From: a virus
DNA length: 40,623 nucleotides
Direction: 5' to 3' (one strand)
IMG/VR virus record: IMGVR_UViG_3300031178_000001
Below are positions 1,546 through 19,972 of the stretch, piece by piece. The notes under the pieces are model-generated. The model was not told the DNA's origin. It saw only the letters and a list, made by a program, of their open reading frames with translations, and did not search any database. Each line of letters opens with the position of its first letter. Position 1 is the first letter of the stretch. Position numbers and translations under genes: made by a program.

Positions 1546-2799
1546 TCAATCAAGCGAGAGGTATGGTCCGAGGAGACTGTCCAGCTTTTCAACGTTCGCC
1601 CGCCGGCGCGCCTCGGTGACGTGGAGGTAGACGCGGCGCGTCACAGCGTCCGTCGAGTGGCCGAGCTGTTTCTGGATGTCCTCCAGCGACGCCCCGGCCT
1701 CAGCCGACAGGCTGGTGTACGTGTGCCGGAGGCTGTGCGGCGTGATCGATCGCGGCAGGCCGGCGAGATCAAGCAGGCGCGCCAGATCAGCCTCGAAGGT
1801 GAGAGGGTTGAGTGGGTAGCCGGGGTATCGCTTGTACGAGACAAAGGCAAAGTTCCGTTCCCGGTAAAACTTTTCACCGATCAGGAGCCGGAACGCTTTC
1901 ACATCGCGGAGCTGTGCGTCCAAGATGGCCGCGACCGTCCGGCTGATGTCAACGGTGCGGATCGAGGATCGATTTTTCGGCGTCTCAAGCCGGTACGCGC
2001 GGATGCCTTGCCGATGGTACAACGTGGCAATCACCCGGATCGTTCCGCGCCGCACGTCGACCCGCTGCTCCTCGAGCGCGCACAGCTCGCCAATTCGCAG
2101 GCCGGTGTTGGCGAGTATGATGATAGCCCTCATCGTCTGGCGCGCGCCGAACGCCTTCGCCGGGTCAGACAGGCTTTCCGCATACTCCTTTGCGATGCGG
2201 ATCAGACCGGCGAGTTGCTCTTTCTCGAGGTACTCCGGCAGCGGCTCGTCCTCTCCGCGCTCGAGCATCTCGAAAGACGGTCGCATGTTGGGTAACACTG
2301 CACCATCGGTCGGATTGGTACGGACAATTCCCATTTTGACCGCGATATGGTAGAGGATTCGCATTGCGGAATGTGCGCCTCGGATCGCGCTTTCGCCGAG
2401 GTTGTGGACGTCCCGGAGATCCAACAGATACTGCTGGTACTGAGTCGGTGTAATATCCTTGAGTCGCCGGCCGGCGAAGGCGATCCGCGCATATTTGAGG
2501 TTGGAGCGCATCACGTCGACGGTGTTCTGCTTGAGCTGCTTCGCCCTCGCATGCAGCTCGACCCCCTTCTCGGCCCACTCGGTAAACAGTATGTTCTCCT
2601 CATCGACAAATGTCCCCTCGAGCAGTTGCGCCTCGATTTTGATACCTTCTCGATATGCTTCCTGGGGCGTCGGAAAGGCCCGCGTCTCCTTTTGCTTCCT
2701 CCGGACTGTCCCATCCGGCTGCGTGGTCGGGACGCTGTATCGGTATGTGTATCCCTTCCCGCGACGCCGGACTTTTGGCGGCAGCTTTTCTTTTGACAT
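1546..2799 (-). CDS. int: Tyrosine recombinase / phage integrase, 417 aa
   Basis: C-terminal catalytic motifs are present: ...TGLRIGELCAL..., HSLRHTYTSL and LGHSTDAVTRRVYLH. N-terminal SAM-like/arm-binding region. Next to the repressor. Confidence 0.93.
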   Translation of the reverse strand: MSKEKLPPKVRRRGKGYTYRYSVPTTQPDGTVRRKQKETRAFPTPQEAYREGIKIEAQLLEGTFVDEENILFTEWAEKGVELHARAKQLKQNTVDVMRSNLKYARIAFAGRRLKDITPTQYQQYLLDLRDVHNLGESAIRGAHSAMRILYHIAVKMGIVRTNPTDGAVLPNMRPSFEMLERGEDEPLPEYLEKEQLAGLIRIAKEYAESLSDPAKAFGARQTMRAIIILANTGLRIGELCALEEQRVDVRRGTIRVIATLYHRQGIRAYRLETPKNRSSIRTVDISRTVAAILDAQLRDVKAFRLLIGEKFYRERNFAFVSYKRYPGYPLNPLTFEADLARLLDLAGLPRSITPHSLRHTYTSLSAEAGASLEDIQKQLGHSTDAVTRRVYLHVTEARRRANVEKLDSLLGPYLSLD

Positions 2800-2839
2800 A
2801 CTGTATCCTCCTTTTTCATTAATTTACTTTCAAGATTTT

Positions 2840-3469
2840 TCACAGTATTGTGACGACTTGCACAGCTCTGCCGATAATTCGTGCCGGGTTGTCCGGAGTG
2901 ACGATTATCGGTTCGTACTCCGGGTTGTCAGGGAGCAGGATCAGCAGATCGCCTTGCCGCTTGACGCGCTTCAGTGTCGCCTCTTCGTCGCCGTTGACTA
3001 GGATGGCCGCAATTGCTCCGTTTTCTACATCTGGTTGTTCGCGGATCAGGACGAGCGAACCGTCCGGGATCGTCGGTTCCATACTCTTGCCCTTAGCGCG
3101 AAGATAAAACAGTTCACCGGCCGGGAGCCGTTCCGGCGATTCATATACATATTCACTTATATTTTGCTCCGCGAGGATCGGTTCTCCGCACGCGATGGTC
3201 CCCAGCACGGGGATCGGTACTGTTCTCGGTCCTGCGGGGGCGAGGTTCGAAGGACGTTCCTCGGTCAACATAGATTTTGGCACATTAAAGAAATCCGCCA
3301 TCTTTTGAATCTTGTCAATTCTCGGATACTTATCGCCGCTCAGCCACTGTGACACCGCCGAATCGCTCACCCCGATGTGTTCGGCGAGTGCGCGCTGGTC
3401 AATTCCTTTACTTTCCAATAACTTTTGAAGGTTTTCAGCCAAAACTTCACGGGCGCTTTTCTTAAGCAC
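2840..3469 (-). CDS. CI/LexA-like repressor (XRE HTH + S24 peptidase), 209 aa
   Basis: N-terminal HTH (QRALAEHIGVSDSAVSQWLSG). C-terminal S24 motifs GKSMEPTI...LKRV. GTG start with a GGAGGGG RBS. Confidence 0.92.
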   Translation of the reverse strand: MLKKSAREVLAENLQKLLESKGIDQRALAEHIGVSDSAVSQWLSGDKYPRIDKIQKMADFFNVPKSMLTEERPSNLAPAGPRTVPIPVLGTIACGEPILAEQNISEYVYESPERLPAGELFYLRAKGKSMEPTIPDGSLVLIREQPDVENGAIAAILVNGDEEATLKRVKRQGDLLILLPDNPEYEPIIVTPDNPARIIGRAVQVVTIL

Positions 3470-3829: not shown

Positions 3830-3845
3830 AGTGAGGCGGCGGAAA

Positions 3846-4130
3846 ATGGAGCAAGCAATCAACGCAATTCGCAGCATCTTGCTCCTGATCCCGGAAGATC
3901 AGCGGCAGGATGTCATCCGCCAGCTCAGCCGAGAGGTGGGTGCCGTGCAGAGCGACGTGCCGCGCATGTACACGGATCATGAGGTGGCAGCTCGGTATCA
4001 GGTGCATGTGCGGACAGTGCGCAACTGGATTACCAGCGGGCGGCTGCGCGGTTGCCAGATCGACCGGTACTGGTATTCGCGGGCTGATTGGCTGGATGAG
4101 TTTGAACAGAAGGAGGTGACCACCGCATGA
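3846..4130 (+). CDS. HTH_17/excisionase-type DNA-binding protein, 94 aa
   Basis: ATG 3846 with a GAGG RBS. Motif MYTDHEVAARYQVHVRTVRNWITSGRLRG. Confidence 0.65.
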   Translation: MEQAINAIRSILLLIPEDQRQDVIRQLSREVGAVQSDVPRMYTDHEVAARYQVHVRTVRNWITSGRLRGCQIDRYWYSRADWLDEFEQKEVTTA

Positions 4131-6284: not shown

Positions 6285-6694
6285 TGGCGGACAAAGTCAA
6301 GCTGCCGCGAGAAGTGGCGGAGGCGTTGGAGAAGATTTTGAAGGACGAACCTGATCTTGATAAAGATAGACAATTCATTGTGTGGAACTCAGCACATGCA
6401 CCTAACAAATTTGATAGCGGACCATGGGGTGTTCTGTATGATTTCGTAGGTTCGGGGAACATCTTCCTTCTGGCCGACGCCCTCCGCTACGGCTACGAAG
6501 TCGAACTGGAGCCGATCACGGTCACCATCACGCCGGAGATGCAAGAAAAAATCACCCAATATTACGCAAATCTCGACCCCAACACGCAGGAGGACGCCTT
6601 TGACCGGGAATTTGTATTGGGCGAGCGTTCCGGCGTCAGATTCACACTCAAAATGCTCGGCATCACGATCCCCGGCATCCCGTCGGAAGGATGA
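6284..6694 (+). CDS. Hypothetical protein, 136 aa
   Basis: ATG 6284 shares its A with the upstream stop (TGATG). Confidence 0.6.
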   Translation: MADKVKLPREVAEALEKILKDEPDLDKDRQFIVWNSAHAPNKFDSGPWGVLYDFVGSGNIFLLADALRYGYEVELEPITVTITPEMQEKITQYYANLDPNTQEDAFDREFVLGERSGVRFTLKMLGITIPGIPSEG

Positions 6695-6717
6695 CCGTCA
6701 ATTAACCGGTACAAGGG

Positions 6718-7629
6718 GTGGAAGTCTTGAAAATCTGTTATCGGGAGATCAATTTCCGGCCTGACAGTCTGGCGCTGATTGAACAGGTAAACGGCATCAT
6801 CGACGAATACCAGCGCATGGGCTATTCGCTCACGTTGCGACAAGTCTATTACCAGCTGGTCGCCAGAGACATCATCCCGAACAACGAGCGCAGTTATAAA
6901 AATCTCGGCAATTTGATCAATGACGCACGCCTTGCCGGCCTTATCAGCTGGGAAGCGATCGTTGATCGCACGCGGTACATTCGGAAGAACAGCCACTGGG
7001 CTGGTCCCTCTGAGATCGTATGGGCGGCTGCAAATCAGCTCTTTTACGATCGTTGGGCTGACCAGGATTATTATGTCGAGGTTTGGGTTGAGAAAGACGC
7101 GCTTGTCGACGTTGTCGGTAAGACCTGCGAAGAACTGGACGTGCCCTACTTCTCGTGCCGTGGATACGTCAGCCAGTCCGAAATGTGGACCGCTGCTCAG
7201 CGGTTGCGCGACAAGGCCGACGACGGGAAGGAGATCGTCGTCCTCCACCTGGGCGACCACGACCCGAGCGGCATCGACATGAGCCGGGATATCGAGGAGC
7301 GGCTGAATCTCTTCGAAGCATATCCGACTTTCCGGCGGATTGCTCTGAACATGGATCAAATCGAGGAATACAGCCCGCCGCCGAACCCGGCGAAACTGTC
7401 CGACAGCCGCGCAAGGGACTATATCAGCCGACATGGCTACGAAAGTTGGGAGCTCGATGCCCTTCGCCCGGAAGTAATCGATGAGCTCATCCGCGAGCAC
7501 GTCTACGAATTCCGTGATCCGAATCTCCTCGATGAGATCGTGGAGCGCGAAGAGCGCGACAAGGAACTGCTCAAGAATGTGGCGCGGAACTGGAGAGACG
7601 TTGAAACCAAATACCGAGCGGAGGACTGA
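6718..7629 (+). CDS. Top6A/Spo11-like protein (5Y-CAP + Toprim; 'Mini-A' type), 303 aa
   Basis: LTLRQVYYQLV matches the CAP-domain catalytic-Tyr motif. VEVWVEKDAL matches the Toprim Glu. HLGDHDPSGIDM matches Toprim DxDxxG. Confidence 0.6.
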   Translation: MEVLKICYREINFRPDSLALIEQVNGIIDEYQRMGYSLTLRQVYYQLVARDIIPNNERSYKNLGNLINDARLAGLISWEAIVDRTRYIRKNSHWAGPSEIVWAAANQLFYDRWADQDYYVEVWVEKDALVDVVGKTCEELDVPYFSCRGYVSQSEMWTAAQRLRDKADDGKEIVVLHLGDHDPSGIDMSRDIEERLNLFEAYPTFRRIALNMDQIEEYSPPPNPAKLSDSRARDYISRHGYESWELDALRPEVIDELIREHVYEFRDPNLLDEIVEREERDKELLKNVARNWRDVETKYRAED

Positions 7630-12162: not shown

Positions 12163-12717
12163 ATGGACATCAAGCCAATTGAAACCCGATATAGGGGATA
12201 TCGTTTTCGGAGCCGGCTGGAGGCCCGATGGGCCGTGTTTTTCGACAATCTTGGTCTGAAATGGGAGTACGAAAAGGAAGGTTACGACCTAGGGAATTTG
12301 GGTTATTATTTACCGGACTTTTGGGTTGAAAACCTTCATGATCGTTTTGGCCGCCGCGGCATGTTTGTTGAAATCAAAGGCCATCAAGCAACCGATCTTG
12401 AAATCGAGAAATTGGCCCGTTTACTGAAACCCGGTGAGCATGCTGCCATGTTGGACGAAGGAATGAAACCATTTGGACCTTACGGCGACGAAAACGAATT
12501 TTTGGAAGTCTCCTGGCACAATGGTGGAGTTGGTATCGATCTGCCAATGGTTTTCATGAAATGTTACTCCTGCGGCGCCGTCAAATATGAATTCGCGGAA
12601 CAAAATTATTGCGTTTGCGAATTATGTGGAAGCCCTGCTGATAACGACCATCCGGCCATCATACGGGCATACGAAAAAGCATTATCTGCTCGATTTGAGT
12701 TTGGTGAGTGCGGATGA
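12163..12717 (+). CDS. TnsA/Hjc-like PD-(D/E)XK endonuclease with C-terminal Zn ribbon, 184 aa
   Basis: ATG 12163 with a GGAGGAAG RBS. FRSRLEARWAVFFDNLGLKWEYE...YLPDFWV...VEIKG. CYSCG...CELCG. Confidence 0.65.
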   Translation: MDIKPIETRYRGYRFRSRLEARWAVFFDNLGLKWEYEKEGYDLGNLGYYLPDFWVENLHDRFGRRGMFVEIKGHQATDLEIEKLARLLKPGEHAAMLDEGMKPFGPYGDENEFLEVSWHNGGVGIDLPMVFMKCYSCGAVKYEFAEQNYCVCELCGSPADNDHPAIIRAYEKALSARFEFGECG

Positions 12718-14435
12718 TTTTCTTCGATGCTGAGGTCTTTCGTTTCGACTGGATGTTCGTATTTATGGACACCGATTCCAAAACCACAACCGAAATTGTG
12801 AATGATCCGGACCGGTTGAAACAGTTTTATGAAGACCACAAAAACGACATCTGGGTCGGGTACAACTGCCGGCATTATGACCAGTATATCCTGAAAGCCG
12901 TTCTTTGCGGCTTCGATCCTTGGAAAGTTTCGGACTACATCATCAACCAAAAACAAGCGGGCTGGACCTACAGCAATATGTTCCAGAAGATTCAGCTCTA
13001 CCACTTCGACGTGATGACAGACAAAAGCAAAGGTTTGAAGCAGCTCGAAGGCTTCATGGGGTCCAACATTCGGGAAACCTCGGTGCCATTTGATATTGAC
13101 CGAAAACTCACCGACAAGGAAATCACCGAAGTTCTCGCGTATTGCCGGCACGACGTCGAACAAACGATGAATGTGTTCATTGAGCGGATCAAAGAGTTTG
13201 AATCTCACATGGCACTCATCAAAATGTTCAAACTACCGCTGTCATATTTGTCCAAAACCAAAGCTCAGCTGGCCGCGGTGATTCTGGATGCCCGCAAGCA
13301 AGAGCGTCATGACGAGTTCGACATCCGGCTGCCTGACACGCTGCGGATTGAAAAGTATCAACACATCGTGGACTGGTACTTGGCTCCAGAGAACCGGGAC
13401 TATGAAAAAATACTGAACGTGGAGGTCGCCGGCGTGCCGCATACATTCGCTTGGGGCGGCCTGCACGGTGCCCGGAACAACTATCAGGGAGAAGGTGTGT
13501 TTCTCTCGGTTGATGTGGCCAGTTATTACCCGGCCCTGATGATTGAGTATGGTTTCCTAAGTCGGAACGTCGCGGATCCGAACAAATTCCGGCAAATCCG
13601 GGACGAGCGGCTGCGCTACAAAGCCGAGAAAAATCCGCTCGCGAATCCGCTGAAAATTGTGATCAACAGCGTCTATGGCACCATGAAAGACAAATATAAC
13701 CCGCTCTATGATCCGCTTCAGGCCAACAACGTATGCGTCGGCGGTCAACTCCTGCTTCTGGATCTGATCGAACAACTGGAGCCCGTGGTCGAGCTGATCC
13801 AGTCCAACACAGACGGACTGATCGTTCGGATCCCGAAACGTGAGAACGTCGAAATTGTGCATGAGCTCTGTGCAGAATGGCAGGCCCGCACGCGGATGGT
13901 ATTGGAGTTTGAAGTATTCTCACGAATCTACCAAAAAGACGTGAACAATTACATCATCGTGAAGAAGGACGGCAGTTACAAGTCAAAAGGCGCCTACGTG
14001 AAGAAGCTGGACCGTCTTGACTATGATCTGCCAATCGTGAACAAAGCGGTTGTGGAGTATTTTGTTCACGGTACGGATCCGGCGGAAACGATCCAAAACT
14101 GTAACCGCCTGATCGAGTTCCAGAAGGTCGTCAAGGTCAGCGAGAAGTACGGTTACGCGCTGCACGGTAACAGACGACTCTCGGAAAAAGTGCTGAGGGT
14201 GTTCGCTTCCCGCTCGCATCTTGATCCAGGCGTTTACAAGGTAAAATCCGATGCTGAACGGCCGGAGAAAATTGCCGGCACTCCGGAGCGGTGTTTTATC
14301 GAAAACGGCGATATCCGGGAAGCGCGAATTCCGCGAAAACTGGACAAGAACTGGTATATCGAAACGGCCCGGAAACGGATCACGGATTTCTTGGGTGAGT
14401 CTGACGATGCAGAACAAGTGGAATTTCTGTTTTAG
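12714..14435 (+). CDS. Compact family-B DNA polymerase with 3'-5' exonuclease, about 573 aa
   Basis: Exo I FFDAEVF, Exo II GYNCRHYD, Exo III YCRHDVEQ. Pol A DVASYYPALM, Pol B KIVINSVYGT, Pol C SNTDGL. ATG 12714 overlaps the upstream stop; GTG 12708 is the alternative start. Confidence 0.8.
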   Translation: MIFFDAEVFRFDWMFVFMDTDSKTTTEIVNDPDRLKQFYEDHKNDIWVGYNCRHYDQYILKAVLCGFDPWKVSDYIINQKQAGWTYSNMFQKIQLYHFDVMTDKSKGLKQLEGFMGSNIRETSVPFDIDRKLTDKEITEVLAYCRHDVEQTMNVFIERIKEFESHMALIKMFKLPLSYLSKTKAQLAAVILDARKQERHDEFDIRLPDTLRIEKYQHIVDWYLAPENRDYEKILNVEVAGVPHTFAWGGLHGARNNYQGEGVFLSVDVASYYPALMIEYGFLSRNVADPNKFRQIRDERLRYKAEKNPLANPLKIVINSVYGTMKDKYNPLYDPLQANNVCVGGQLLLLDLIEQLEPVVELIQSNTDGLIVRIPKRENVEIVHELCAEWQARTRMVLEFEVFSRIYQKDVNNYIIVKKDGSYKSKGAYVKKLDRLDYDLPIVNKAVVEYFVHGTDPAETIQNCNRLIEFQKVVKVSEKYGYALHGNRRLSEKVLRVFASRSHLDPGVYKVKSDAERPEKIAGTPERCFIENGDIREARIPRKLDKNWYIETARKRITDFLGESDDAEQVEFLF

Positions 14436-15404: not shown

Positions 15405-17285
15405 GTGAACGACGACATTTATGAATATTTATACCGCGGATTCATCCAGTTGAAAGATAAAGAGGCGATTGAAAAATTCAAAGACAGAGACGATCTCTCA
15501 ACTTTCAACACGGTACGGCGGTACGCCGGATATGCGGGGGTTTTGGCGCCAGGCGTTCTTCTTGTCGATGTGGACGATTTCGAAAAATCAGAAATCGTTT
15601 TGCGAATGGTCGATGATCTCAACATTCAATGCTGTGTCGTTGAAACCGGCCGCGGGAAACACTTCCTGTTCCGGGATCCGGACCTGCCCAGCAATAAAAC
15701 CAAGACGAACACCGCGATCGGAATTACCGTCGACATTAAGCTCGGAACCCGCAATTCCTATCAAGTGCTCAAGCATAACGGCGTGAAACGGCCCTGGATT
15801 CGGAGATCTGAACAAGTTGATACGCTGCCGTTCTGGCTCATGCCGATCAAACACAACACGGATTTTTCAAAACTTGGTGAAGGGGACGGCCGCAATCAGT
15901 CTCTCTTCAATTATATCCTGACACTCCAGGGCGCCGGATTCACGAAGGAAGAGATTCGGGAGACGATCCATCTGATCAACAAATATATTCTCCCGGATCC
16001 GCTTCCGGAGCGCGAAATCAATACCATCCTGCGGGATGAAGCGTTCAAGAAACAGTCGTTTTTCAAGGGCTCAACATTTCTGCATGACCGGTTTGCTCAA
16101 TATATCATGCGGGAGAATCACATCATCAAAATCGACAACGTGCTGCATGTATTCAAAGACGGTGTGTACAGCGATCGAGTTCAGGACATTGAAGCCGTGA
16201 TGATCAAGCATCTGCCGCAGCTGAATCAGGCGAAGCGGCGCGAGACACTCGCCTATCTCGATATCATCGCGGAAAATCAAGATCCGGCGCCGGCGAATCT
16301 CATCGCGCTTGAGAACGGCATCTATGATCTGAGCTCCGATAAAATCATCGACTTTAGCCCGGACATCATCATCAAAAACCGGATCCCGGTTACATTTGAT
16401 CCGGATGCTTACGACAAAACGACCGATCAAACGCTGAATAAGATCAGCTGCGGCGACAAAGAGGTCAGAGCATTGCTGGAAGAGATGATCGGGTATCTCC
16501 TGTTCAGGCGTAACGAGCTGCGGAAAGCGTTCATCCTGACAGGGACCGGGCAAAACGGGAAGTCGACGCTGCTCGATATGATCAAACATTTTCTCGGTCC
16601 GGACAATTACAGCTCGCTGGCACTCGAAGAACTCGGGCACCGCTTCAAAACGGCTGAAATTTTCGGGAAGCTCGCGAATATCGGAGACGACATCGACAGC
16701 GAGTATATTCAGTCGAATGCCGTCTTCAAAAAACTGGTGACCGGGGAAACCGTGAACGCGGAGCGTAAAGGCAAAGATCCGTTCGAGTTCAACAATTATG
16801 GAAAACTCATCTTCAGCGCGAACGAAATGCCGCGGATCAACGATCGAACGGACGGCCTGATCAGTCGATTGATTATCATCCCATTCAACGCGAAATTCAC
16901 GGCCCAGGACCCGGATTTTGATCCGTTCATCAAGGACAAGTTGCTTACGGATCGCGCAATGTCATATTTACTCAATCTCGGTCTGACCGGCCTGAAACGT
17001 GTCCTGCAGCGGAAGCAATTTACGATGCCGGAAGTGGTACGACAAGAAATGCAGCTCTATGAATCGATCAATAATCCCGTACTCGCGTTCATCGAGGATG
17101 GCGGAAAGATCGAAAACGAGCCGACAAAAGATGTCTATCTCAAATACAACGCCTGGTGTCATCAAAACGGACTTCGTCCGCTCAGTCAAATACAATTCAG
17201 CAGGGAGGTGTGTAGGAAGCTCGGAATGGAAACAAAAGTGATCCGGGTAGATGGAAAACTGAATCGTATATTTATACAAAATTAA
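15405..17285 (+). CDS. Bifunctional primase-polymerase / D5-type helicase (P4-family primase), 626 aa
   Basis: AEP motifs LLVDVDD...GKHFLF. Walker A GTGQNGKST. GTG start with an AAGGGGTGA RBS. Confidence 0.85.
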   Translation: MNDDIYEYLYRGFIQLKDKEAIEKFKDRDDLSTFNTVRRYAGYAGVLAPGVLLVDVDDFEKSEIVLRMVDDLNIQCCVVETGRGKHFLFRDPDLPSNKTKTNTAIGITVDIKLGTRNSYQVLKHNGVKRPWIRRSEQVDTLPFWLMPIKHNTDFSKLGEGDGRNQSLFNYILTLQGAGFTKEEIRETIHLINKYILPDPLPEREINTILRDEAFKKQSFFKGSTFLHDRFAQYIMRENHIIKIDNVLHVFKDGVYSDRVQDIEAVMIKHLPQLNQAKRRETLAYLDIIAENQDPAPANLIALENGIYDLSSDKIIDFSPDIIIKNRIPVTFDPDAYDKTTDQTLNKISCGDKEVRALLEEMIGYLLFRRNELRKAFILTGTGQNGKSTLLDMIKHFLGPDNYSSLALEELGHRFKTAEIFGKLANIGDDIDSEYIQSNAVFKKLVTGETVNAERKGKDPFEFNNYGKLIFSANEMPRINDRTDGLISRLIIIPFNAKFTAQDPDFDPFIKDKLLTDRAMSYLLNLGLTGLKRVLQRKQFTMPEVVRQEMQLYESINNPVLAFIEDGGKIENEPTKDVYLKYNAWCHQNGLRPLSQIQFSREVCRKLGMETKVIRVDGKLNRIFIQN

Positions 17286-18330: not shown

Positions 18331-18509
18331 TTTACAAGCAGCCGAAACCCGGCGACAGATACCGGCCCATTGTCACGGTACTCAAAGTGAAAAAGAGTGT
18401 TCCGACCATAATCCGCGTCTCCGGGCGGGAGTACGTGCTGCGGACGCCGGATCAGTTCAACCAAAGAAGACAGGGGGCGGTGAAGCGTGACCGAACAACA
18501 AGCCATTGA
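18327..18509 (+). CDS. Hypothetical protein, 60 aa
   Basis: GTG start overlaps the upstream stop (GTGA). Confidence 0.45.
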   Translation: MIYKQPKPGDRYRPIVTVLKVKKSVPTIIRVSGREYVLRTPDQFNQRRQGAVKRDRTTSH

Positions 18510-19092
18510 GCTCCTGAGCCAATACCGCCAGAAACAGGCCCGGCTGCAGGTGCTGTCGACGTACAGTGTCGGCGCCGGCATCACGATCAGCCGGCTCAAT
18601 GAGGACGACCACCTGCAGGAGCTGCATCGCCGGCTGCGCGGTCTGCCGAGCTACCTGTACCTCAGCGCGAAAGAGCAGCAGCTTGAGAGCGTGGCTCACG
18701 CGTACCTCACCCGGTACCCGGCCGGCACCCGGGCGCAGCTGGCGGCAGTGCCGCGTGAGGGCGCGGACGAAGAGGACGAGCAGCTGCTGCGGGAGCTGCG
18801 GGCGAAGATTCGGAAGGTGATCGCGGCGCGCGGCTGGGACGTGCGCGATGACATCGACGCGGTGCTGGACAGACTGACCGAGTATCAGGACCTTCGGGCG
18901 GAGATCGAGCGGGTGGACACGGTGCTGGCGGCGCTGGAGAATTACAAGCCGGATCTGGCACGGGTGCTGCGGCTGCGGTACGTGGAAGGTAAACAACCGT
19001 CTGAGGTAGCCGCGGAGTTAAAGATCGCGGAGCGCACATTCCGGTCCTGGCAGAAGAAAGCTGAGCAGGAATTTGCCCGACTCGCAGGGTGA
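18487..19092 (+). CDS. Late-gene regulator with sigma-70 region-4 type HTH (ArpU/RinA-like role), 201 aa
   Basis: C-terminus DLARVLRLRYVEGKQPSEVAAELKIAERTFRSWQKKAEQEF. Located immediately upstream of the packaging module. Confidence 0.6.
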   Translation: MTEQQAIELLSQYRQKQARLQVLSTYSVGAGITISRLNEDDHLQELHRRLRGLPSYLYLSAKEQQLESVAHAYLTRYPAGTRAQLAAVPREGADEEDEQLLRELRAKIRKVIAARGWDVRDDIDAVLDRLTEYQDLRAEIERVDTVLAALENYKPDLARVLRLRYVEGKQPSEVAAELKIAERTFRSWQKKAEQEFARLAG

Positions 19093-19093
19093 T

Positions 19094-19168
19094 GCCGAAA
19101 ATATACCGGAAATGTGCCGGAATTATGCCGAAGAAAGGCCGGACAAGCCGAAATTTGCGTGCTAAAAT
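19094..19168 (+). promoter_or_regulatory. Six helically phased (A/G)CCGRA repeats followed by an extended -10 (candidate late promoter)
   Basis: Repeat starts at 19094, 19105, 19116, 19127, 19138 and 19147 (spacing 11, 11, 11, 11, 9). TGCTAAAAT at 19160-19168. Confidence 0.5.
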
Positions 19169-19505
19169 GGTAGTGTCGAAGTCGTGTATCCAAAGGATGA
19201 CGACGCATCTCGCCGCATCGTCTGCGCACTCTGTCCACGGATGGCGTGCAGGACGATATCCGGAGCGGCGGGAAAGCGGCACAGCGTACCAACCGGGAGG
19301 GAACCGCGAGGCAATTCCCGGACGCGAGTGCCGCAATATAGCTATTATGGTCGCCGTCCGGATGGACGGAATGCCCTGTCGAGCCGAAAGGCTACGTGCC
19401 ACGTAGCTTATGTGGGGCGATATGGGGCGGGAATATGTGGGAACCCATGCCATGTACTAGGGGGCTAGGGCACAGCGCTTGAAGGGGTTAGGGCGCGACC
19501 ATTAA

Positions 19506-19621
19506 GGGATGCGGTGGCGGAATAGGTAGACGCTATGGCGTGAGGTGTGAACGACTCGACCTGAAATCGAGCACCGGCGCGGAGGCACACCATGCAGGGT
19601 GCAAATCCCTGCCCGCATCCC
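19506..19621 (+). ncRNA. Non-canonical tRNA-like element (116 nt)
   Basis: 9-bp acceptor-like stem GGGATGCGG/CCGCATCCC. D-arm GCG-GAATAGGTAGA-CGC. T-arm GCAGGG-TGCAAAT-CCCTGC. A 59-nt branched domain replaces the anticodon arm. No encoded CCA. Confidence 0.45.
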
Positions 19622-19636
19622 GAACACGACAATGTC

Positions 19637-19658
19637 AGAGCCTTGGGCTCTTTTTTTT
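19637..19658 (+). terminator. Strong rho-independent terminator 24 nt before the first late ORF
   Basis: AGAGCC-TTG-GGCTCT followed by a run of 8 T. Confidence 0.8.
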
Positions 19659-19681
19659 ATTTACAAAAAGGAGTGTGAACA

Positions 19682-19972
19682 GTGAATGAATTCATCCTGA
19701 CAAGACACGCCTTCGAACGCTACTGTCAGCGGGTCGAGAGGACTGAGCGCAACGAACTGGTTGAGCTGCTCCGGCAGCACGCAGAAAGACCGACGCATAA
19801 AAAACGCGGTTATATCGAGCTGGCCGGTGTGTGGTGGAGGTATGGCATGCGTGACAACACGATGATCCTTTATACGTGCTATGGCCGGCATCATATCGAC
19901 TTGCCCGCTGCGATTCGGTGGGCGAAGCGAAAGAAAGACCGCATCAACCTGGGAGGGGGTGAAGCACGATGA
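19682..19972 (+). CDS. Hypothetical protein, 96 aa
   Basis: GTG start with an AAAGGAG RBS. N-terminus LTRHAFERYCQRV. Confidence 0.6.
   Translation: MNEFILTRHAFERYCQRVERTERNELVELLRQHAERPTHKKRGYIELAGVWWRYGMRDNTMILYTCYGRHHIDLPAAIRWAKRKKDRINLGGGEAR

What the first reader, a model, noticed from the sequence alone, without database searches (positions are those of the whole stretch)
19506..19621. tRNA-like cloverleaf with over-long stems and a branched domain in place of the anticodon arm
The element has several tRNA-like parts:
- a 9-bp acceptor-like helix (GGGATGCGG/CCGCATCCC);
- a type-II-like D-arm (GCG, 11-nt loop GAATAGGTAGA with the GG dinucleotide, CGC);
- a 6-bp T-stem with a 7-nt loop TGCAAAT, where G replaces the second base of the canonical TTC.

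Between the D and T arms are 59 nt, not the 17-38 of any normal tRNA. They form a helix (GGTGTG/CACACC) capped by two hairpins. One hairpin (CTCGA-CCTGAAA-TCGAG) looks like an anticodon stem-loop but has C where U33 should be. No CCA is encoded.

Possible identities: a degenerate tRNA, a processing signal (an RNase P/Z site) that releases the upstream RNA, or a tRNA mimic or decoy aimed at tRNA-targeting host defences.
Basis: partly seen in the sequence, partly recalled or inferred. Interest (0 to 1): 0.65.

Follow-up and report, generated by a model that had tools for sequence, protein, structure and literature searches.

The report
Phage tRNA-Leu mimic with swappable arm
The element is real and belongs to a large, unannotated family of phage RNAs in Bacillota that keep the acceptor, D and T arms of a leucine tRNA but replace the anticodon arm with a highly variable domain, so they look like tRNA without being able to decode.

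Summary
Window 19506-19621 (+) folds as described, and every conserved helix is backed by comparative data.

**Not a tRNA.**
- ARAGORN finds none.
- Rfam 15 has no match.

**A family, not a one-off.**
- About 115 distinct relatives were recovered from viral contigs, and 102 bacterial species genomes carry it, nearly all Bacillota.
- Cultured phages carry it too (SPP1, phi3T, phiJL-1, ATCC 8014-B2, Leuconostoc and Enterococcus phages). It is unannotated in every listed record.
- Shared features:
  - a covarying 7-bp acceptor stem;
  - a near-invariant GUGGCGGAAUAGGUAGACGC D arm, whose 19-mer (UGGCGG…) is identical to that of canonical phage tRNA-Leu genes;
  - a middle domain of about 8-200 nt, usually closed by a helix;
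  - "AU";
  - a covarying 6-bp T stem with loop UGCAAAU.

**Setting.**
- It lies on the gene strand between the late activator and the terminase genes.
- Elsewhere it sits inside tRNA arrays with 1-10 nt spacers.
- It is accessory: 4 of 17 phages sharing the window's activator have it.

**Reading.**
- Best reading: a non-decoding tRNA-Leu mimic, cut out by tRNA-processing enzymes and acting in trans.
- Its target is unknown. A decoy, a scaffold for the variable arm, and a processing signal all remain open.

The parts
19094..19155 (+). Six direct repeats RCCG(G)AA, starting at 19094, 19105, 19116, 19127, 19138 and 19148 (spacing 11, 11, 11, 11, 10 nt). They lie between the stop of the late-activator gene and the promoter-like site and may be activator-binding sites (inference).
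   Evidence: Read directly from the sequence. L017 has an analogous GGGAAAAA repeat array at the same place.
19140..19168 (+). Promoter-like site: CGGACA, 17 nt, TGcTAAAAT (extended -10). Presumed start of the leader or small-RNA transcript.
   Evidence: Consensus scan. The same sequence is present in relatives L001 and L002.
19205..19278 (+). Long imperfect hairpin ("module B") upstream in the same transcript.
   Evidence: -38.2 kcal/mol, z = -3.7. Conserved at 94-97% identity in L002 and L016.
19276..19334 (+). A second stable hairpin. It is part of a 232-nt block that L002 lacks.
   Evidence: -33.8 kcal/mol, z = -4.5, 0 of 200 shuffles as stable. Indel against L002.
19370..19431 (+). Hairpin resembling the Rfam DUF3800-VIII RNA, below the family threshold.
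   Evidence: 31.5 bits against a gathering score of 40.2, E = 0.0017. Above-threshold DUF3800-VII and DUF3800-VIII RNAs lie near the element in L016 and in phi3T.
19506..19621 (+). The tRNA-like element as reported. The family core is 19508-19620.
   Evidence: Covariance model R1 scores 86.5 bits at 19508-19620 and finds a single copy in the window; the window sequence was in the training set. Covariation of the core.
19508..19514 (+). Acceptor stem 5' strand (GATGCGG). It pairs with 19613-19619 (CCGCATC). 19620 is the discriminator position (C), and 19506-19507 with 19620-19621 add two local G-C pairs.
   Evidence: All 7 pairs show compensatory changes across 113 cores. Extension statistics.
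19515..19534 (+). U8 and G9, then a 3-bp D stem with an 11-nt loop carrying GG, then N26. The 19 nt 19515-19533 are identical to the D arm of canonical phage tRNA-Leu genes.
   Evidence: The 19-mer TGGCGGAATAGGTAGACGC hits both family members and ARAGORN-called tRNA-Leu(taa, tag, caa) genes. It is nearly invariant in alignment A1.
19535..19593 (+). Variable middle domain:
- 9-nt linker (19535-19543);
- closing helix GGTGTG/CACACC (19544-19549 with 19586-19591);
- hairpin CTCGA-CCTGAAA-TCGAG (19555-19571);
- weak hairpin CCG-GCG-CGG (19574-19582);
- near-invariant "AT" (19592-19593).
   Evidence: L016 has the same acceptor and D/T loops (one T-stem base differs) but an unrelated middle. Closing-helix position statistics. 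Hairpin shared with L053. Fold.
19594..19612 (+). T arm: a 6-bp stem (GCAGGG/CCCTGC) with the 7-nt loop TGCAAAT, which has G where tRNAs carry U55.
   Evidence: 5 of 6 stem pairs covary, including the extra outer pair. Among non-tRNA hits to the D-arm pattern alone, TGCAAAT was the commonest T loop (22 counted); 7 others showed single-base variants.
19637..19660 (+). Intrinsic-terminator-like hairpin AGAGCC-TTG-GGCTCT followed by T8. The next gene's ribosome-binding site and GTG start (19682) follow with no room for another promoter.
   Evidence: Across the family, terminator-like sites lie within 150 nt downstream of 28 of 112 elements, against 27 of 560 control positions.

Best explanation
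**Shown**
- Window 19508-19620 is one member of a large family of RNAs carried by phages of Bacillota and derived from class II tRNA-Leu.
- The family keeps:
  - a 7-bp acceptor stem;
  - the Leu-type D arm;
  - the "AU" before the T stem;
  - a T arm, here with 6 bp and loop UGCAAAU.
- The anticodon arm is replaced by a lineage-specific, exchangeable domain, so the RNA cannot decode.

**Inferred**
- In this temperate phage it is transcribed from the promoter just downstream of the late-activator gene.
- It is the last module of a roughly 490-nt non-coding cassette that ends at an intrinsic terminator.
- Host tRNA-maturation enzymes (RNase P at the 5' end, RNase Z and perhaps the CCA-adding enzyme at the 3' end) excise it as a stable RNA of about 113 nt.

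**Proposed**
- It acts in trans through its conserved acceptor and elbow core as a tRNA look-alike that occupies a host tRNA-binding factor.
- The most plausible target is a tRNA-directed defence or toxin that reads the acceptor/elbow rather than the anticodon.
- The 13-bp acceptor/T stack, G55 and the missing anticodon would keep it out of translation.
For: **Identity**
- No tRNA or tmRNA call and no Rfam family.
- Strong covariation of the acceptor and T stems across 113 cores.
- D-arm 19-mer shared with ARAGORN-called phage tRNA-Leu genes.
- The model scores phi3T, which was not used in training, at 60.3 bits.

**Handled like a tRNA gene**
- 26 of 118 elements have canonical tRNAs within 500 nt, always on the same strand.
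- Some elements occupy a slot in a tRNA array with spacers of 1-10 nt: L078, L107, L150, L196, L104.
- In L. plantarum phage ATCC 8014-B2 the element lies between two tRNA-Arg genes.
- Position 74 is T in 53% of elements, and none encodes CCA.

**Acting in trans, and accessory**
- Only 4 of 17 phages with a homologous late activator carry it.
- L001, whose activator is 94% identical, goes from promoter straight to terminator.
- The element occurs in quite different genome contexts:
  - between gene 9 and gene 11 in SPP1;
  - after the yonN-like gene in phi3T;
  - at the cos end of phiJL-1.

**The core matters**
- About 20 D-arm and T-loop positions are invariant or nearly so, while the stems have turned over completely.
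- Minimal members with almost no middle domain exist (L219, 61 nt; L167, 76 nt).

**Not built for charging or decoding**
- Position 73 is A in only 52% of elements, and C in the window.
- Position 1 is G in only 35%.

**Neighbours**
- The same cassettes hold other orphan structured RNAs (DUF3800-VII and -VIII) of unknown function.
Against: - No expression, processing or binding data exist. Every functional step is inference.
- No defence system or partner protein was identified. Neighbouring genes are only late activators, HNH, TerS and TerL.
- About 95% of members keep a structured middle domain of 40-200 nt. A pure core decoy would not need one.
- Some members carry large insertions at the elbow itself: in the D loop between G18 and G19, and in the T loop between positions 55 and 56. 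That is hard to reconcile with a partner that reads the outer face of the elbow.
- Acceptor helices run past 7 bp about twice as often as chance, including in the window. This could hinder RNase P or RNase Z.
- The T-loop conservation is partly circular, because the first collection scan required GGTGCAAATCC.
Confidence: 0.4

Rival explanations
1. **tRNA scaffold for a variable effector arm.** The conserved tRNA-like core only supplies processing, folding and stability, as engineered tRNA scaffolds do. The lineage-specific middle domain is the active part, whether an aptamer, decoy or base-pairing module.
For: - Nearly all members keep a structured middle domain closed by a helix at a fixed position.
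- Middles are conserved within lineages but swapped between close relatives that share the same flanks: window against L016 and the L. plantarum phages with one acceptor stem and three different middles.
- Some middles contain extra T-arm-like hairpins.
- The hairpin CGA-CCUGAAA-UCG recurs in two otherwise different middles.
Against: - Minimal members without a middle domain exist (L219, L167).
- No middle domain matched any Rfam family.
- The window's middle has no significant complementarity elsewhere in the phage genome.
- A scaffold role alone does not explain why Leu-specific D-arm bases and G55 are invariant.
Confidence: 0.25
2. **Processing signal ("tRNA punctuation").** The element's only role is to recruit RNase P and RNase Z. 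Cleavage would separate the neighbouring structured RNAs (19205-19431 upstream) or set the ends of the transcript, as mascRNA does for MALAT1.
For: - In the window it is the last module of a multi-RNA leader.
- In L016 a DUF3800-VII RNA follows it about 70 nt downstream.
- Elsewhere it is packed tightly among tRNAs.
- Its acceptor identity features are relaxed.
Against: - A punctuation mark needs only the shape. It does not need about 20 invariant Leu-type nucleotides or a conserved G55 across hosts from Lactobacillus to Clostridia.
- It does not explain the elaborate variable domains.
- In some phages the element has no obvious RNA neighbour to release (L002).
Confidence: 0.2
3. **Essential cis-acting late-transcription element.** For example, an RNA that lets polymerase read through the terminator at 19637-19660, in the manner of HK022 put.
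For: It sits between a promoter next to the late-activator gene and a terminator that must be read through to reach terS and terL. The activator has weak Q-like and sigma region 4 matches.
Against: - It is absent from 13 of 17 phages with the same activator family, including a 94%-identical one.
- It also occurs in tRNA arrays and mid-operon sites unrelated to late promoters.
Confidence: 0.05
4. **A real but unusual tRNA-Leu.** Either an intron is removed to restore an anticodon arm, or it is a tRNA pseudogene in decay.
For: - With introns allowed and the score threshold cut to 80%, ARAGORN proposes tRNA-His(gtg) with a 34-nt intron.
- Some linkers keep Leu-anticodon-like strings such as TAAGG or TGAGG: TAAG occurs in 27 of 111 against 7 expected.
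Against: - The relaxed call is in a different register from the conserved arms and appears only at a threshold that also yields spurious calls.
- No conserved anticodon stem-loop exists across the family.
- Members of 61-76 nt have no room for one.
- Covariation and the wide distribution rule out decay.
Confidence: 0.03

Closest known systems
Class II tRNA-Leu, bacterial and phage-encoded
   Same: - 7-bp acceptor stem and U8.
- A 3-bp D stem with the identical D-arm 19-mer.
- G18 and G19.
- A helix abutting the T stem, like a long variable arm.
- A T arm with G53-C61, U54, C56 and A58.
- It sits in tRNA arrays.
   Different: - No anticodon arm.
- A 6-bp T stem, giving a 13-bp acceptor/T stack.
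- G at position 55.
- The discriminator is A in only 52% of members.
- G1 in only 35%.
- A middle domain of about 8-200 nt.
- Not called by ARAGORN or by Rfam RF00005.
mascRNA / MALAT1 and MEN-beta tRNA-like elements (Rfam RF01684); MHV68 viral tRNA-like RNAs (own knowledge)
   Same: - A non-decoding tRNA-like fold embedded at the end of a longer non-coding transcript.
- Expected to be cut by RNase P and RNase Z.
- The gammaherpesvirus case is also virus-encoded and linked to other small RNAs.
   Different: - Those are eukaryotic and Pol II/III based.
- There is no sequence relationship: the Rfam match is 14.6 bits against a gathering score of 42.5 and covers the T arm only.
- mascRNA has no large variable insert.
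Bacterial Y RNA YrlA (tRNA-like domain)
   Same: A bacterial and phage-associated non-coding RNA that mimics the tRNA D/T elbow and acceptor and is handled by tRNA enzymes (Chen et al. 2014, PMC4201824, seen only as a search result; details from own knowledge).
   Different: - In YrlA the 5' and 3' ends form the Ro-binding stem at the anticodon-stem position (own knowledge). Here the ends form the acceptor stem.
- No Rfam match appeared even at E of 10 or below.
tmRNA tRNA-like domain
   Same: The acceptor and T arms are kept, and the anticodon arm is replaced by another domain.
   Different: - No tag reading frame or pseudoknots.
- The size is about 110 nt, not about 350.
- The third acceptor pair is T-A, not G-U.
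- A full D arm is present.
- ARAGORN's tmRNA search is negative.
Phage-associated large structured RNAs found next to tRNAs (GOLLD, ROOL) and the DUF3800 RNA motifs (Weinberg et al. 2017, PMC5737381)
   Same: - Orphan structured RNAs of unknown function in prophages.
- Often next to tRNAs and often followed by terminators.
- DUF3800-VII and -VIII RNAs share the same cassette region.
   Different: The structures are unrelated, and none of them is tRNA-derived.

Membership tests
Canonical tRNA (ARAGORN; Rfam RF00005) | Detected by standard tRNA finders or scores above the family threshold. | tested here: not met
   - ARAGORN finds 0 genes in the window.
- Rfam gives no hit at gathering score or at E of 10 or below over 18800-19900.
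- The minimal member L219 is also missed at E of 10 or below, while a neighbouring tRNA scores 42 bits.
Canonical tRNA (ARAGORN; Rfam RF00005) | 7-bp acceptor stem, U8, and a D arm carrying G18 and G19. | tested here: met
   Sequence. All 7 acceptor pairs covary, and the D-arm positions are invariant or nearly so.
Canonical tRNA (ARAGORN; Rfam RF00005) | Anticodon arm: a 5-bp stem and a 7-nt loop with U33. | tested here: not met
   - No conserved arm across the family.
- The window's candidate loop CCUGAAA has C at position 33 and lies inside a branched insert.
- Members of 61-76 nt lack any such arm.
Canonical tRNA (ARAGORN; Rfam RF00005) | A 5-bp T stem with a UUCRANY loop (U54, U55, C56). 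| tested here: not met
   - The T stem has 6 covarying pairs.
- The loop is UGCAAAU, with G at position 55, in most members found by the D-arm pattern alone.
Class II tRNA-Leu | Leu-type D arm: a 3-bp stem, an 11-nt loop, and the sequence GGCGGAAUAGGUAGACGC. | tested here: met
   The identical 19-mer occurs in ARAGORN-called phage tRNA-Leu(taa, tag, caa) genes.
Class II tRNA-Leu | Discriminator A73, the main LeuRS identity element (established knowledge), together with a Leu anticodon. | tested here: not met
   - The window has C at position 73.
- Across the family, position 73 is A in 52%, T in 25%, C in 14% and G in 10%.
- No anticodon arm is present.
Class II tRNA-Leu | A long variable arm emerging just 5' of the T stem. 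| tested here: inconclusive
   - A helix closes the middle domain 2 nt before the T stem in 70 of 111 members.
- Whether it lies where a variable arm or an anticodon stem would lie cannot be told without a three-dimensional structure.
The family defined here (covariance model R1) | - 7-bp acceptor stem.
- UG plus the Leu-type D arm.
- A variable middle domain.
- "AU".
- A 6-bp T stem with loop UGCAAAU.
- Acceptor 3' strand directly after the T stem. | tested here: met
   - 86.5 bits at 19508-19620 (the window was in the training alignment).
- Independent members score 60-82 bits.
- All listed features can be read in the sequence.
tmRNA | A tRNA-Ala-like domain with G3-U70, a tag reading frame and pseudoknots. 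| tested here: not met
   ARAGORN's tmRNA search is negative. The third acceptor pair is T-A, and the element is only 113 nt long.
mascRNA-type tRNA-like 3' element | Match to Rfam RF01684, and RNase P/Z cleavage that releases an upstream RNA. | tested here: not met
   14.6 bits against a gathering score of 42.5. Cleavage cannot be tested with these tools.
DUF3800-VIII RNA (the neighbour at 19370-19431, not the element itself) | Score at or above the Rfam gathering threshold. | tested here: inconclusive
   31.5 bits against 40.2, E = 0.0017. phi3T has an above-threshold copy at 44.7 bits.

The most novel reading that the evidence does not exclude
Phages of Bacillota, including the model phages SPP1 and phi3T, carry a previously undescribed class of tRNA-Leu-derived RNAs.
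- The tRNA core serves as a conserved handle.
- A hypervariable arm is exchanged between phages by recombination at the invariant D-arm and T-loop flanks. Some members also carry insertions at the elbow.
- The result is a modular RNA cassette system used in phage-host or phage-phage conflict, for example to neutralise tRNA-directed immunity.
Probability: 0.3. Interest if true: 0.9.

Novelty: new variant of a known kind. Interest (0 to 1): 0.72.

Why it matters
- tRNA mimicry is known in eukaryotic viruses, in lncRNA processing and in bacterial Y RNAs. A widespread phage-borne family derived from tRNA-Leu with a swappable arm appears to be uncatalogued.
  - It is absent from Rfam 15.
  - It is unannotated in every cultured-phage record listed.
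  - Five of the nine full-text literature searches targeted such an element; none of the nine found a description.
- It occurs in genetically tractable systems (SPP1 and phi3T in B. subtilis, and L. plantarum, Leuconostoc and Enterococcus phages). Its processing, partners and phenotype can therefore be tested directly.
- If it is a decoy for tRNA-targeting defences or toxins, it adds an RNA-based counter-defence.
- If the variable arm is the effector, it is a natural version of the engineered tRNA scaffold.
- In either case it marks the junction between the late activator and terminase genes of Bacillota phages as an island of orphan structured RNAs. It also explains a stretch of SPP1 that has been annotated as a doubtful reverse-strand gene.

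Tried and rejected
1. **Miscounted pattern.** My first collection pattern was off by one N. It returned only chance matches in coding DNA (L023-L043), which I discarded.
2. **Intron-containing tRNA.** ARAGORN with introns finds nothing at default or at -ps. At an 80% threshold it gives an implausible tRNA-His with a 34-nt intron in the wrong register. I rejected this because the family has no conserved anticodon arm and includes members of 61-76 nt.
3. **Direct similarity search.** BLAST of the intergenic region against cultured phages found nothing. The family only emerged from pattern scans.
4. **Antisense target.** The middle domain and the whole leader have only chance-level matches elsewhere in the window. 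An 8-nt match between the linker and the downstream ribosome-binding-site region is at chance level.
5. **Known motifs in the variable arms.** Rfam found none in 17 loci with large inserts.
6. **Universal linker motif.** TAAG is enriched (27 of 111 against 7 expected) but far from universal.
7. **Conserved partner protein.** Clustering of genes within 4 kb gave only late activators, HNH, TerS, TerL, portal and YopX.
8. **Coding potential.** The ORF 19089-19406 has no Pfam or PHROG match. Relatives differ here by indels of whole RNA modules.
9. **Nearest cultured relative.** Bacillus phage PK1 (64% TerL identity) lacks the element.
10. **DUF3800 protein in the window.** None was found among the 20 ORFs scanned.
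11. **Literature.** Nine full-text searches and the 2018 SPP1 re-annotation gave no description of this element. Subscription journals are not covered.

Full report
**1. What is at the coordinates**

The window is a temperate phage genome.
- It encodes an integrase and an S24/HTH repressor at 1546-3469.
- The replication module includes a DNA polymerase at 12708-14435 and a primase at 15405-17285.
- A sigma/Q-like late activator lies at 18487-19092.
- A non-coding stretch of about 590 nt follows, then TerS (19969), TerL (20376) and the portal gene (22562).

The reported element lies in that non-coding stretch.
- the acceptor helix;
- the UG and D arm;
- the helix GGTGTG/CACACC;
- the hairpin CTCGA-CCTGAAA-TCGAG;
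- the 6-bp T stem with loop TGCAAAT.

Folding the single sequence gives modest support.
- The MFE is -48.9 kcal/mol with z = -2.3.

Standard detectors see nothing.
- ARAGORN finds no tRNA or tmRNA.
- Rfam 15 gives no match at gathering score.
- At E of 10 or below, the only Rfam hit on the element is a 14.6-bit T-arm match to mascRNA.

**2. Relatives show a family, not a one-off**

Seventeen IMG/VR contigs encode homologues of the late activator.
- Four of them carry the element: L002, L003, L004 and L016.
- L016 has the same acceptor, D-arm and T-loop sequences (one base differs in the T stem) and a completely different middle domain.
- L001 has a 94%-identical activator but runs from the same promoter straight into a terminator.

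A gapped pattern (TAGACG…GGTGCAAATCC) returned more than 120 viral loci.
- 88 showed the full architecture, with acceptor stems of unrelated sequence.

A scan with the D-arm 19-mer alone removed the T-loop bias. It recovered three kinds of sequence:
- canonical phage tRNA-Leu(taa/tag/caa) genes;
- family members, mostly with loop TGCAAAT and a few with single-base variants;
- members with a large insertion inside the T loop.

A strict pattern hit 102 species genomes.
- Nearly all are Bacillota: Lactobacillaceae, Bacillaceae, Paenibacillus, Clostridia and Erysipelotrichaceae.
- At least 58 of these loci contain phage packaging or late-activator genes.

Cultured phages carry the element, unannotated in every listed record except SPP1, where a doubtful reverse-strand gene overlaps it.
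- In SPP1 it lies between genes 9 and 11. It overlaps a doubtful reverse-strand "gene 10" and sits just upstream of a published putative terminator.
- The others are phi3T, phiJL-1, ATCC 8014-B2, and Leuconostoc, Weissella and Enterococcus phages.

**3. Structure**

The core alignment holds 113 distinct sequences (alignment A1; pair counts).
- 98.2% of cells pair, against about 40% for slid partners.
- All 7 acceptor pairs and 5 of 6 T-stem pairs show changes on both sides.
- The extra outer T-stem pair covaries too, so the acceptor/T stack is 13 bp.
- The D arm, the "AU" before the T stem and the T loop are invariant or nearly so.

One caveat applies. Members were selected for 6 of 7 acceptor pairs and 5 of 6 T-stem pairs at a fixed geometry. 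That inflates the percentage paired, but not the diversity of pair types.

The middle domain ranges from 8 to about 200 nt.
- In 45 of 111 members a 9-13 nt linker precedes a helix. In 70 of 111 that helix closes 2 nt before the T stem.
- The window follows this pattern: linker UAUGGCGUGA, then the helix GGUGUG/CACACC.
- Some linkers form a small CUUA-N4-5-UAAG hairpin. No motif is universal.

Taken together, the layout reads as a class II tRNA with a stunted or missing anticodon arm and an oversized, variable arm next to the T stem. Whether that arm occupies the variable-arm or the anticodon-stem position is not settled.

**4. Context**

The element always lies on the gene strand.
- Upstream genes fall in the same PHROG families (248 and 36) as the window's activator.
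- Downstream genes are HNH, TerS and TerL.

In the window the order of features is:
1. six phased RCCG(G)AA repeats;
2. a promoter-like site with an extended -10;
3. three strongly structured modules, one of which resembles DUF3800-VIII;
4. the element;
5. an intrinsic terminator;
6. the next gene's ribosome-binding site.

Across the family, terminator-like sites follow the element five times more often than control positions.

The link to tRNA genes is consistent.
- 26 of 118 elements have canonical tRNAs within 500 nt, all on the same strand.
- Several sit in arrays with 1-10 nt spacers.
- In ATCC 8014-B2 the element lies between two tRNA-Arg genes.

**5. Mechanism**

*Shown:* descent from tRNA-Leu, selection on the fold, inability to decode, accessory status, and co-location with tRNA genes.

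*Inferred:*
- Transcription runs from the activator-proximal promoter.
- RNase P and RNase Z excise the RNA. This fits the tRNA-array slots and the absence of encoded CCA, which is common in Bacillota tRNA genes (own knowledge).
- T at position 74 in 53% of members points the same way. As far as I recall, B. subtilis RNase Z favours U after the discriminator.

*Proposed:*
- The RNA acts in trans as a tRNA look-alike through its conserved core.
- Relaxed A73 and G1 argue against charging by LeuRS as the general function.
- The presence/absence pattern argues against an essential cis role in late transcription.

The persistent, structured and exchangeable middle domain keeps the scaffold model alive. 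The position at module boundaries keeps the punctuation model alive.

**6. Comparison and novelty**

The closest known things are listed below, with what separates each from this family.

| Known thing | Relation to this family |
|---|---|
| tRNA-Leu | The ancestor; membership fails on the anticodon arm, the T loop and every detector |
| mascRNA-type and gammaherpesvirus tRNA-like elements | Same logic, but unrelated |
| YrlA | Different topology |
| tmRNA | Fails on size, tag frame and G3-U70 |

I found no description of the family.
- Rfam 15 has no match.
- GenBank phage annotations do not mark it.
- Nine full-text searches found nothing. This library does not cover subscription journals, so prior description cannot be excluded.

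I rate it a new variant of a known kind (tRNA mimics). It is of high interest because it is widespread, strongly constrained and present in model phages.

Noticed in passing
window 19094-19155: Six direct repeats RCCG(G)AA at 10-11 nt spacing, matching the DNA helical repeat, lie between the late-activator stop codon and the promoter-like site. L017 has an analogous GGGAAAAA array. They may be activator-binding sites.
   Followed up: partly
window 19205-19334: Two very stable hairpin modules (z = -3.7 and -4.5) share the leader with the element. The first is conserved in L002 and L016. The second is part of a 232-nt block that L002 lacks. The cassette looks built from interchangeable RNA modules.
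   Followed up: partly
window 19370-19431; L016:4948-5037; L355 (phi3T):2863-2928: DUF3800-type RNA motifs, whose function is unknown, co-occur with the element.
- Window: DUF3800-VIII below threshold, 31.5 bits.
- L016: DUF3800-VII at 67.5 bits, about 70 nt downstream of its element.
- phi3T: DUF3800-VIII at 44.7 bits.
- No DUF3800 protein was found among the window ORFs scanned.
   Followed up: partly
L182, L189, L209, L220, L223, L231, L247-L249, L164/L214 (coordinates): A subclass carries a large insertion inside the T loop, between positions 55 and 56. It has a conserved entry and exit: GG-UGAC-UAUACGAG…CUCG-K-CAAAU-CC. No Rfam match was found in the four of these loci scanned (L189, L209, L220, L223).
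   Followed up: partly
L049, L060, L087, L108, L140, L153: Another subclass carries a 20-75 nt insertion in the D loop between G18 and G19, often starting ACACC-loop-GGUG. Both kinds of insertion emerge at the same corner of the tRNA elbow.
   Followed up: no
L352 (phiJL-1):1458-1517; L017:~3830-3888; L354 (SPP1):~1167-1211; L353:~3113-3200: A second kind of mini tRNA-like RNA without an anticodon arm, with ordinary UUCGAAU-type T loops, sits next to family members.
- The phiJL-1 copy scores 42 bits on Rfam tRNA although it is only 60 nt long.
- The SPP1 copy is the sequence published as a weak terminator (6780-6824).
   Followed up: partly
L354 = NC_004166.2 6525-6734 (SPP1 "gene 10"): The SPP1 RefSeq record annotates a reverse-strand "gene 10", flagged as in conflict with its conceptual translation. 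It overlaps the 5' part of the tRNA-like element (record about 6647-6756). That annotation is probably spurious.
   Followed up: partly
L017:3737-3822: In a distant relative, ARAGORN calls a tRNA-Ser with the odd anticodon aga at the position the element occupies in the window (Rfam tRNA 40.6 bits). A hairpin with a T-run precedes it, and a mini tRNA-like RNA follows.
   Followed up: no
L071/L090/L114 against L145: One inner hairpin of the variable arm has its loop sequence inverted between close relatives: AACGTATGT against ACATACGTTT. This suggests inversion or recombination within the arm.
   Followed up: no
window 19545-19552 and 19673-19680: The 8-mer GTGTGAAC, preceded by a Shine-Dalgarno-like GAGG or GGAG, occurs at two places: the linker-to-helix junction of the element and the ribosome-binding region of the next gene. 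The match is at chance level.
   Followed up: partly
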